Of a DNA stretch of 64,000 bases, positions 59,301 through 62,300 are shown one piece after another; position 1 is the stretch's first letter; the number at the start of each line of letters is the position of its first letter. Source of the DNA: Mobula birostris (lineage: Eukaryota); assembly GCF_030028105.1 (NCBI RefSeq), contig NC_092379.1:20003309-20067308 (forward strand). The letters run 5' to 3'. A program made the position numbers.

Positions 59301-62300
59301 GTTTAAGAGCACAAGATCACGCATCCACACCTTGCCAAAACCAATGCGAGAGTGGCGGGAGTGAGATTGTGAAGCACGCGGACCTGACTTGTATTGGCGG
59401 GAAAGCGGTGCTTCTCATCCCAACAGTGAGACTGTGAGATGTGCACACGTGTCTTGTATTGGTGGGAAGGCAGTGCTCCTCGCACAACTGTGAGCTTTGG
59501 ACGCATATAAGGAGACGTTGGTAGAAACAGGTTCCTCGCATAACTGTGAATCCGCATTGTCTGAAGATGCATATAACGAGGATAGGGTGTACATACAGTC
59601 CATGTAGATAACTTCTACTATCTTCCCTTCATCAAATTTCCTGGTAACTTCCTCAAAAAACTCTATAATGTTGACTATACTTAATCAGTCCATGTCTATC
59701 CACATACTCAGATATCCGGCCCCTTAGAATACCTTCCAATAACTTTCACACTACAGATGTCAGGCTCACTGGCCTATAATTTCCTGGTTTACTTTTTCAG
59801 TCTTTTTTAAACAGTGGAACAACAACAGCTATCCTACAATCAGCTGGGCTGTCAGCTGCCGCTAAAGATGTTTTAAATATCATTGCTAGGGCCCCTGCAA
59901 TTTTTGCATTTCCTCCCACAAATTACACCCTAATTTGCCTCAAGACAGCAAACACCTTCTCCTCTGTAATGTGTATCAGGAGCATGTTCACGCTGCTGCT
60001 TTGCCTCACTTCAATGGACTGTCCATCTCCCAAGTAAATACAGATACAAAAAATCCATTTAAGATCTTCTCAAACACGAGGAAATCTGCAAATGCTGGAA
60101 ATTCAAACAACACACACAAAAAATGCTGGTAAACGCAGCAGGCAAGGCAGCATCTATAAGAAGAGGTACAGTCGATGTTTCGGGCCGAGGCCCTTCATCA
60201 GGAAGATTTAATACATTGTGCAGTCCTACACAGGGTTGAAATCCATTCAAACGTGGCAGAAGAAGGTCTGAGAATGTACACACAAACTCAGAGATTTGTG
60301 GTGAATCATGTTTGTAGTTTAATTTGGTTCTTGATCTTAATTTCATTTTTAATTATTTTAAAAGGTCCAGGCTTTTATCATGTTTTAATCAGTTAAATAA
60401 TCCTCTGTGGTAGTTAATAATCATAAAGCTAACAAAAGTAGGGTTTCATGGATTGAATCACACAGTATTGCACACAAGATTTAAAACTATCGGTCAGAAC
60501 GAGTGAGACATTGACCAGGGTGGGTTTACTGTGAGATTTATTGATGCTTCGGAACAGGTTGGTTGTGAGCGACTCATGACCCACCACACAGGAGAAAGTG
60601 GTGCCGCTATTCCACTCCTCAGGAGAAACCTTCAGCTGACTGGTCATTATGTTCCAGCCTTTTCTGGGGTCCTTGGTCACTGGCTGGTTCACAAACCCTG
60701 TCTTCAGAAGGGTGTCATTGGCCATCTAGGCCACATAGATCTCTGCGGGAGAGAACTTGGTGACCAGGCACATCAAGGTCACAGTCTGATCAGTGACTAC
60801 CTCATTCAATGAAGGGGGAAGGAGGATGAGTCACAACACCACCTGGAACAGAGAGAATCTCAGTTAGAATGAATCTTCCAATAATTCCTTACTTACCCAA
60901 CAGATTCTGGTCTTGCACCAATATGAACAGTTTCGAAATCTGAGAGGCTTCACTTTATCTGAAACTAAAGGCTTTTCCCTTTCTGCTCATTGTTGGGATT
61001 GGTGGAGCGGAAATCTTGAATCTTTCTTTATCAATCTCTTTATTGATTTAAAAAGAGCACATATACAAACAAGTGGAGAATTATCTCAAAAATATATATC
61101 TCTAACAATACAAACAGAAAGTGAAATAAACATTATCAAAATCATACATTGTATTAAGCTAATATGTAGTATATAATAAAAAAGAGGACAGCTAATTCTC
61201 CTGTTATCAGTTCATAAAGAGAGAAAAAGAAACTTTAAATTTTAATAAAAAGAAAAAAAACACTGCATTATGTGAAAAAAGGAAAAAAAAAAAAGGGGGA
61301 CTGGGCAGTCCATTCTGAGGATACGACCAAAAAAAAAGGAAAGACTTTCTGATCAAATCTAGAACTTTGAAAATAAATAATTGGAAGAGTAATAAATCAA
61401 ATCAAATGAAAATATTGAATAAAAGGTCACTAGATTTGCTCAAATTTAAAGGATCTATCTAAATGTCCGACTTCTTATTTTCTCTAAACTTAAACAGGAC
61501 ATAATGGAGGAAAGCCAATAAAAGACAGTAGGTCGATTAGAACCCTTCCACTTCAATAAAGTGGCTCTACTAGCTAATAAAGTTGAAGAGGCTATCATAC
61601 GTTGAGCGGAAACAGGAACATTTCCTGCTTCCGATGGGATAATCCCAAAGATTGCCTTAGGTAAATTAGGTTGTAGGTCCAGATCCAAGACTCTTGATAG
61701 CGTTTTAAAAACATCTGTCCAAAACTTGTCTCGCTTTATGCAAGATCAAAAGATATGAGTTCAAGTGGCCACCTCAATATTACATCTGTCACAAATAGGA
61801 TTGATGTTGGAAAAAAATCGTGCTTGTTTATCCTTTGACATATGGGCCCAATGCACTAACTTGAATGGTACCAAGGAATGGTGGGCACAAATAGATGAGT
61901 TATTAACGAAATGAAAAATTTTATTCCATTGATTATCTGAAAATGACTGTTGAAATTCCAATTCCCAAGCATGTTTAATTTTATCATTAGATATCATTGG
62001 TAAATTCAATAACTATTTATAAATGATAGCTATCAACCCTTTTTGGAGTGGTTTAAACTGAAAGAGAGCATCTGTCATATTAGGTGGATAAGCAGAAGGG
62101 TAATTTGGCAGCAAACCATGTAAAAAATTCCTAATTTGTAAATATTTAAAAAAGTGTACATTAGATAAGTCATATTTATCCACTAACTGAGAAAAAGACA
62201 TTAAACAACCTCCCAAAAACAAATCTGAAAAAGTTATTATTCCCCTGGTTTTCCAAGTTAAAAAGGCCCTATCCAAAATTGATGGTTTAAAAAAATAATT

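What the first reader, a model, noticed from the sequence alone, without database searches (positions are those of the whole stretch)
60726..60842. Isoform-selective inactivation: dead tailpiece exon, intact downstream exons
The C6-like exon has a Trp-to-TAG change and a 5' frame defect. The C3-like, C4-like and TM exons keep open frames, canonical Cys/Trp and GT-AG sites. The cluster may have lost only its long secreted isoform while the 3' module stays under selection. Alternatively the whole cluster is a young pseudogene.
Basis: partly seen in the sequence, partly recalled or inferred. Interest (0 to 1): 0.66.

Follow-up and report, generated by a model that had tools for sequence, protein, structure and literature searches.

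The report
Dead antibody tailpiece exon, intact neighbours
This is the tail end of a shark-type antibody heavy-chain gene in which the exon needed for the secreted form is broken while two constant-domain exons and a membrane-anchor exon next to it are intact; this is most likely ordinary gene decay.

Summary
On the minus strand, 60432-60842 is an immunoglobulin C1-set exon carrying a mu-type secretory tailpiece. As it stands it cannot encode its domain. No reading frame runs open from its splice acceptor into the domain frame. An in-frame stop also occupies the column of the invariant core tryptophan. Downstream lie two intact C1-set exons (56203-56505 and 55796-56113) and one membrane exon, TM1 (51733-51875). 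All six splice junctions are AG/GT and the phases match. No second membrane exon was found. Exon A's best single-domain match is nurse-shark IgNAR C2, so the module is IgW/IgNAR-type. The exon order is non-canonical: reviews and a bamboo-shark genome study place the tailpiece exon last, directly before the membrane exons. Lesion counts do not separate isoform-selective loss from a young or incomplete pseudogene cluster. The probability that evenly spread lesions all fall in this exon is 0.12 for two lesions and 0.04 for three. The upstream V and C exons lie outside the window, and no transcript or paralog data were available. I judge this an ordinary, partly decayed Ig cluster with an unusual exon order.

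The parts
60432..60842 (-). Terminal, tailpiece-bearing Ig constant-domain exon (mu4 / IgW-C6 / IgNAR-C5 type), disabled. It has one frame defect at its 5' end and one in-frame stop at a core position, and possibly a lost normal stop. The finding's interval 60726-60842 is its 5' third.
   Evidence: Pfam C1-set on both halves. PDB tailpiece-domain matches, E 1.9e-24 to 1e-20, and mu C4 for the 5' half. Frames and bounds. Stop in the Trp column.
60524..60530 (-). Internal GT (A|GTAAAC, phase 1) at the domain/tailpiece junction, the position of the internal donor used by mu-type genes for membrane splicing.
   Evidence: Sequence read directly. PDB membrane-isoform mu chains align to the query only up to two residues before this point, while secreted isoforms align through the tail. 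That this GT works as a donor is inferred, not shown.
60207..60389 (-). Four ATTAAA hexamers within about 220 nt downstream of the tail exon's stop; candidate polyadenylation signals for a secreted transcript.
   Evidence: This is a consensus match only, in an AT-rich stretch, so the evidence is weak.
58772..59302 (-). DDE_1 (pogo/Tc1-type) transposase fragment inside the 3.9-kb interval between the tail exon and exon A. It is a neighbour, not part of the gene.
   Evidence: Pfam DDE_1, E 1e-10.
56203..56505 (-). Exon A: intact C1-set exon, IgW-C3 / IgNAR-C2 type, phase 1 at both ends.
   Evidence: Pfam C1-set 2.3e-11. Best single-domain PDB match is 4q9b_A, nurse-shark IgNAR, E 2.9e-21, with 40 of 95 aligned positions identical by my count. 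4Q9B is named IgNAR-C2 in PMC8236899. Junctions.
55796..56113 (-). Exon B: intact C1-set exon without a tailpiece. It lies 89 nt downstream of exon A, is phase 1 at both ends, and its donor is followed 3.9 kb later by TM1.
   Evidence: Pfam C1-set 3.8e-18. PDB matches. Junctions.
51733..51875 (-). TM1 exon: acidic spacer plus membrane-spanning segment of an Ig heavy chain. Acceptor phase 1, donor phase 0.
   Evidence: It holds the only match in the window to an F..LF..[ST]..Y motif (typed from recall) and a strongly hydrophobic 21-mer. 5 of 5 PDB hits (E 0.25-0.88, weak) are membrane-isoform mu chains, aligned up to the exon's last residue. Junctions.

Best explanation
This is the 3' end of an IgW/IgNAR-type immunoglobulin heavy-chain cluster of a cartilaginous fish, on the minus strand. 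Its exon order is non-canonical: tailpiece exon, then two C exons, then TM1. My confidence in this identity is about 0.9.

The tailpiece exon is a pseudo-exon. A transcript using its acceptor would stop after 12 full codons, and the domain frame also carries a stop at a core position. No chain with the last domain, the tail glycan site and the polymerising Cys can therefore be encoded.

The most likely status of the whole is a recently disabled or incomplete cluster, that is, a pseudogene. On this reading the two downstream C exons and TM1 are intact because decay is young, not because selection on them has been shown. The extra C-exon pair between the tail exon and TM1 is best explained by one more two-exon duplication or rearrangement of the kind already described for this gene lineage. 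That step is inferred, not shown.
For: - Identity is supported.
- The lesions are shown.
- Decay is young. The tail exon still scores 28.2 + 24.5 bits on C1-set, against 44.3 for exon A and 66.0 for exon B, and its tail still matches mu tails at about 1e-20.
- The cluster looks incomplete or rearranged. Canonical clusters put Sec and Tm directly after the last C exon (PMC8692893 passages).
- No TM2 was found: the mu-type pattern has 0 matches, and an interspersed repeat starts about 190 nt after TM1.
- No other Ig exon lies in the 3.1 kb upstream or the 51 kb downstream. The local HMM found only the two halves of the tail exon, exon A and exon B among 1328 six-frame ORFs. tblastn found nothing further. 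Pfam C1-set hit 3 of 150 ORFs and there was no proper V-set hit.
- Transposon fragments flank the exons.
- Pseudogene and incomplete clusters are common: 3 of 7 IgNAR clusters are incomplete in bamboo shark, and pseudogene IgM groups exist in nurse shark (PMC2435157 passages).
- Two-exon duplications are known in IgW/IgNAR, and clusters with 6-8 C exons exist (PMC12227049; PMC5192425; PMC6795676).
- There is a single TM1 in the window.
Against: - All detected lesions sit in 411 of 1175 exonic nt. Under even decay P = 0.12 (2 lesions) or 0.043 (3 lesions), which leans towards constraint on exons A, B and TM1.
- All six splice junctions and all Cys/Trp positions of A and B are intact.
- Exon B running straight to a TM exon mirrors the known short membrane forms of IgW (4 C) and IgNAR (3 C).
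- Failure to find TM2 is weak evidence, because such exons can be a few codons long.
- The upstream part of the cluster was not seen.
Confidence: 0.45

Rival explanations
1. Isoform-selective loss. The cluster is still used. The tailpiece-bearing secreted chain is lost. Membrane chains are still made by splicing an upstream C exon (phase 1) past the dead exon to exon A, then exon B, then TM1.
For: - Exons A and B are phase 1 at both ends and TM1 has a phase-1 acceptor, so skipping the dead exon keeps the frame.
- A, B and TM1 have no stop or frameshift, and 6 of 6 junctions are intact.
- Lesions cluster in the tail exon (P 0.12 or 0.043).
- Short membrane forms ending after IgW C4 or IgNAR C3 are the known forms.
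- Precedent: dead mu genes linked to intact delta genes in catfish, with secreted and membrane IgD made from different genes (PMC5192425 passages).
Against: - No transcript evidence was available.
- TM2 was not found.
- The dead exon keeps a good acceptor, so it would compete with skipping.
- The exon order is non-canonical.
- No C exon lies within 3.1 kb upstream.
- The statistical support is weak, and the exons were chosen after seeing the data.
Confidence: 0.3
2. Remnants of two different clusters lie side by side, or the assembly collapsed two clusters into one. On this reading the tail exon is the last exon of an upstream cluster that lost its own TM exons (IgM-, IgW- or IgNAR-type). Exons A, B and TM1 come from a 5'-truncated IgW/IgNAR-type cluster.
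For: - The exon order fits no canonical single cluster.
- The isotype of the tail exon is unresolved, since all classes share this tail (PMC8692893 passages).
- IgM, IgW and IgNAR clusters are linked in elasmobranch genomes (PMC12227049 abstract and passages).
- The intervals on both sides of the tail exon are long and carry transposons.
Against: - There is only one TM1, and no V, D, J, C1 or C2 remnant between the tail exon and exon A.
- There is no N gap between the exons; the only N run is at 19998-20129.
- Self-comparison shows no duplicated intron sequence.
Confidence: 0.15
3. The lesions are sequencing or assembly errors, or one allele of a polymorphism, and the cluster is functional in the species.
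For: - One lesion differs from a sense codon by a single base, and the other is a small net length change.
- The rest of the exon is very well preserved.
Against: - Two or three independent defects fall in one 411-nt exon and none in 764 nt of neighbouring exons.
- As I read the alignment, the 5' defect lies upstream of the 'LILLPPS' stretch that matches exon B and so outside the nearby run of five C. It therefore does not look like a homopolymer miscall.
Confidence: 0.1

Closest known systems
Secretory tailpiece exon of polymeric immunoglobulins (IgM C-mu4; shared by IgA, shark IgW long form and IgNAR)
   Same: A C1-set domain followed by a KPT..NVS..C tail. A GT sits at the domain/tail junction where mu genes splice to TM1. 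PDB matches have E 1.9e-24 to 1e-20.
   Different: There is a stop in the core Trp column and no open path from the acceptor. The frame runs 15 codons past the tail Cys instead of one. The exon is not the last C exon before TM1.
Short membrane forms of shark IgW (V-C1-C4-TM) and IgNAR (V-C1-C3-TM)
   Same: Exon A is closest to nurse-shark IgNAR C2. IgNAR C2 corresponds to IgW C3 if IgNAR C1 corresponds to IgW C2, as passages of PMC4622739 suggest. Exon B has no tail, and its phase-1 donor fits the phase-1 acceptor of TM1. The membrane forms are described in passages of PMC4279169, PMC8692893 and PMC6795676.
   Different: In the described clusters these forms arise by skipping the last two C exons, which lie between that donor and the TM exons. 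Here nothing lies between exon B and TM1, and the tail exon is upstream of exon A.
Pseudogene and incomplete Ig heavy-chain clusters of sharks
   Same: A cluster with disabling lesions and missing or misplaced parts. 3 of 7 bamboo-shark IgNAR clusters are incomplete, and nurse-shark IgM groups 6-8 and G2C are pseudogenes.
   Different: Here the lesions seen are confined to one exon. The V end could not be examined.
Catfish IGH loci: dead mu genes linked to intact delta genes, with secreted and membrane IgD made from different genes
   Same: An upstream tailpiece-type gene part is dead while downstream IgD/W-type exons and TM exons are intact (PMC5192425 passages).
   Different: That is a bony fish with a translocon locus and whole genes rather than exons. 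No expression data exist here.

Membership tests
Immunoglobulin C1-set domain | Pfam PF07654 match above the curated cut-off (21 bits) | tested here: met
   Exon A 44.3 bits, exon B 66.0 bits, tail exon 28.2 and 24.5 bits for its two stop-free halves.
Immunoglobulin C1-set domain | Two disulphide cysteines and the core tryptophan | tested here: not met
   Met for exons A and B. In the tail exon both Cys are kept but the Trp column holds a stop. The exon is therefore a relic of a member, not a working one.
Mu-type secretory tailpiece exon | C-terminal tail with an N-glycosylation site and a Cys next to the C-terminus | tested here: inconclusive
   The tail with NVS and Cys aligns to mu and alpha tails. 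However, 15 more codons follow the Cys, against one residue in the two relatives shown. The tail length in shark isotypes could not be checked.
Mu-type secretory tailpiece exon | Last C exon, directly followed by the membrane exons | tested here: not met
   Exons A and B lie between it and the only TM1.
IgW / IgNAR constant region (cartilaginous fish) | C domains closer to IgW/IgNAR domains than to other Ig classes | tested here: inconclusive
   Exon A's best single-domain PDB hit is IgNAR C2 (78.4 bits; 40 of 95 identical by my count). A tree of domains could therefore not be made, and exon B and the tail exon remain unassigned.
IgW / IgNAR constant region (cartilaginous fish) | Canonical cluster layout V-D-J, C exons in order, Sec tail on the last C exon, then Tm | tested here: not met
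   The order here is tail exon, exon A, exon B, TM1, against the layout in PMC8692893. The V-D-J part is not testable because it lies outside the window.
Ig heavy-chain membrane exon TM1 | Acidic spacer, membrane-spanning segment with the conserved antigen-receptor motif, phase-1 acceptor | tested here: met
   One motif match in the window (motif typed from recall). 5 of 5 PDB hits are membrane mu chains, but the E-values are weak at 0.25-0.88. The acceptor is phase 1.
Expressed (functional) heavy-chain gene | Rearranging V-D-J upstream, spliced transcripts, TM2 and a polyadenylation site | not testable with these tools
   Upstream sequence and transcript data were not available. TM2 was not found.

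The most novel reading that the evidence does not exclude
A cartilaginous-fish heavy-chain cluster may have two separate 3' modules. One is a secretory module ending in the tailpiece exon. The other, placed behind it, is a dedicated membrane module with its own pair of C exons plus TM. On this reading secreted and membrane chains would use different C exons, and this copy has lost only the secretory module. It would then survive as a membrane-only receptor gene. A bolder variant is that the tail exon is mu-type and the module behind it is IgW-type, making this a decayed mu-delta-like unit in an animal thought to have only separate clusters.
Probability: 0.12. Interest if true: 0.6.

Novelty: new member of a known kind. 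Interest (0 to 1): 0.3.

Why it matters
As it stands, this is one more partly decayed antibody gene cluster in a genome family known to hold many, so its main value is for annotation. Gene predictors are likely to join or misname these exons.

The exon order is the one feature worth a second look, with a tailpiece exon in front of a C-C-TM module. If other clusters or other species share it, or if transcripts show the membrane module in use, it would document a new way of separating secreted and membrane antibody forms. It would also add a case to the history of two-exon duplications in IgW/IgNAR.

Tried and rejected
- **More Ig exons.** I searched with a local HMM of exons A and B against 1328 six-frame ORFs. 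I ran tblastn with the tail exon, A, B and TM1. I screened 150 stop-to-stop ORFs of at least 92 aa with Pfam, the largest after setting aside those touching the N run. Nothing appeared beyond the three C exons and TM1, and there was no proper V-set hit.
- **A second TM1 near the tail exon.** None was found.
- **TM2.** The acceptor-plus-short-ORF scan gave three unconvincing candidate sites. A mu-type pattern gave 0 matches against 1.77 expected by chance.
- **Duplicated introns.** Self-blastn of 50-64 kb found only interspersed repeats. The two 3.9-kb intervals (3926 and 3920 nt) are alike in length only.
- **Isotype from the ESM Atlas.** Both calls returned generic C1-set clusters and gave no class.
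- **UrIg or UrIg2 membership.** I rejected this. The UrIg2 chain 9dmx_A matches each domain only as well as IgG does. tsIgH, which I take to be UrIg, is under 30% identical to shark Igs (PMC10331284, first part of the text).
- **RNA families.** 0 Rfam hits at gathering score.
- **The key genomic paper on nurse-shark IgW clusters** (Zhang, Du Pasquier and Hsu 2013). It is not held. What I say of it beyond the reviews' words is recalled.
- **Unused collections.** I did not use the bacterial genome, phage, plasmid and E. coli collections, because they cannot hold a vertebrate Ig gene.
- **Joining exons.** Each exon was searched on its own, and I left out the step of joining exons into a spliced model.

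Full report
**What the window is.** The window is vertebrate sequence with one N run at 19998-20129, which I left alone. I do not take it for human. Outside 51.7-60.9 kb it is almost entirely transposon debris.

**The feature itself.** The finding's interval, 60726-60842, lies on the minus strand. It runs from the first base after a good acceptor (polypyrimidine tract plus cag) to an in-frame stop. The full exon is 60432-60842, 411 nt, followed by its stop codon. It encodes an Ig C1-set domain followed by a secretory tailpiece.
- Both stop-free halves pass the Pfam C1-set cut-off of 21 bits, with 28.2 and 24.5 bits.
- The 3' half with the tail matches the tailpiece-bearing last domain of polymeric antibodies in the PDB. 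The best hit is 9ec7_A at E 1.9e-24, and mu chains score about 1e-20. In all, 443 distinct sequences match at E up to 0.001.
- The 5' half's best single-domain match is mu C4.
- The tail keeps its NVS site and its Cys.
- A GT sits at the domain/tail junction, at the point where membrane-isoform mu chains stop aligning. This suggests the exon once served both secreted and membrane forms. That is an inference.

**The lesions.**
- Exons A, B and TM1 all use phase-1 acceptors. Read that way, the tail exon stops after 12 full codons. The other two frames also stop within 13 codons, and the frame that encodes the domain is not the phase-1 frame. There is therefore no open path from the acceptor into the domain.
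- In an alignment of the three domains, the tail exon's stop falls in the column where A and B carry the core tryptophan. Both cysteine columns are kept in all three.
- The frame runs 15 codons past the tail Cys, while the two PDB relatives shown end one residue after it. This may be a third lesion or a lineage feature.

The exon is otherwise no more eroded than its neighbours, scoring 52.7 bits summed against 44.3 and 66.0. The damage is therefore young.

**The neighbours.**
- Exon A is 56203-56505 (303 nt) and exon B is 55796-56113 (318 nt). They are separated by an 89-nt intron.
- Both are open in phase 1, have AG and GT at their ends, and keep Cys, Trp and Cys.
- Exon A's best single-domain PDB hit is 4q9b_A, nurse-shark IgNAR (E 2.9e-21; 40 of 95 positions identical by my count). 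A paper names that entry IgNAR-C2 (PMC8236899, passage).
- Reviews say the last four IgNAR C domains are homologous to IgW domains, and that IgNAR C1 resembles IgW C2 (PMC4279169 and PMC4622739, passages). Exon A is therefore IgW-C3 / IgNAR-C2 type.
- Exon B has no tailpiece.
- TM1 lies 3.9 kb further on, at 51733-51875. It has a phase-1 acceptor that fits B's donor, an acidic spacer and a membrane-spanning segment. All 5 PDB hits are membrane mu chains, but they are weak, with E 0.25-0.88.
- I found no second TM exon. An interspersed repeat begins about 190 nt after TM1.
- Each exon was searched on its own, and I left out the step of joining exons into a spliced model.

**What is not there.** No other Ig exon turned up in the window.
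- The local HMM found only the two halves of the tail exon, exon A and exon B among 1328 six-frame ORFs. The next best E-value was 0.6.
- tblastn with each exon found nothing further.
- Pfam C1-set hit 3 of 150 ORFs, and there was no proper V-set hit.
- There is no second TM1.
- Only 3.1 kb upstream of the tail exon is in the window, and it holds repeats. The V-D-J and other C exons, if any, lie beyond base 64000.

**Why the layout is odd.** In the descriptions I could read, the tailpiece sits on the last C exon and the membrane exons follow it directly. Short membrane forms (IgW with 4 C domains, IgNAR with 3) arise by skipping the last two C exons (PMC8692893, PMC4279169 and PMC6795676, passages). 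Here the tail exon lies in front of the C-C pair, and nothing lies between exon B and TM1. Two-exon duplications are a known theme in this gene lineage, and clusters with 6 to 8 C exons exist (PMC12227049 and PMC5192425, passages). One more duplication or rearrangement of an exon pair into the tail-to-TM1 interval is therefore the simplest account, and the single TM1 fits it. Self-comparison found no duplicated intron sequence to prove it.

**Which reading?** If the cluster is still transcribed, it cannot make a tailpiece-bearing chain. It could still make a membrane chain by skipping the dead exon, because exons A and B are phase 1 at both ends and TM1 has a phase-1 acceptor.
- The support from lesion counts is thin. 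If lesions were spread evenly over 1175 exonic nt, the chance that all fall in the tail exon is 0.12 for two lesions and 0.043 for three.
- Four points count against a working gene: the non-canonical order, the missing TM2, the lone position of the tail exon among transposon fragments, and the known frequency of pseudogene and incomplete clusters in sharks.
- I put a recently disabled or incomplete cluster at 0.45 and isoform-selective loss at 0.30. Remnants of two clusters or an assembly collapse gets 0.15, and error or polymorphism gets 0.10.

**What stayed unchecked.**
- The isotype of the tail exon and of exon B, dN/dS, transcripts, raw reads and the upstream exons are all unchecked.
The remaining collections hold no vertebrate genes.
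- The main genomic paper on nurse-shark IgW clusters was not held.
- Paper supplements were closed. Cluster maps in them may bear on the layout question.

**Verdict.** The feature is an ordinary, partly decayed antibody gene cluster with an unusual exon order.

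Noticed in passing
window 425-2327 (-) and 5585-7594 (-): Virus-like (LTR-retroelement or retrovirus-like) gag-pol remains; described only. The first stretch has a gag-like PNMA match and a weak reverse-transcriptase match. The second has RNase H, integrase zinc-binding and Tf2-type SH3 matches. Both are broken. The gag-like part is split by at least 1 frameshift and the pol part by at least 2. No integrase core match was seen. A weak chromodomain match lies at 34130-34498 (-).
   Followed up: partly
window 46425-51286, both strands: Several LINE-type ORFs with endonuclease and reverse-transcriptase matches, including an 87% identical inverted pair (50001-51031 against 46100-47091). 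They lie directly downstream of TM1.
   Followed up: partly
window 15538-16488 (-), 10939-11457 (+), 58772-59302 (-): DNA-transposon remains: a hAT-associated DUF4371 ORF of 316 aa and two DDE_1 transposase fragments. One of the DDE_1 fragments sits between the tail exon and exon A.
   Followed up: no
window 60072-60203: A short interspersed repeat about 230 nt downstream of the tail exon's stop. Copies that are 85-87% identical lie at 639-769 and 36886-37010, and weaker ones lie near 31.6-32.2 kb.
   Followed up: no
window 56506-60431 and 51876-55795: The interval from the tail exon to exon A (3926 nt) and the interval from exon B to TM1 (3920 nt) are almost the same length. They share no detectable sequence similarity. 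I take this to be coincidence.
   Followed up: yes
window 19998-20129: The only N run (132 bases). It was left as it is, and ORFs touching it were kept out of the Pfam screen.
   Followed up: no
window 52993-53118 and 63510-63536: Tandem repeats: a 48-nt unit in 2.6 copies and the hexamer TATGAC in 4.5 copies. There were no Rfam hits anywhere in the window at gathering score.
   Followed up: no
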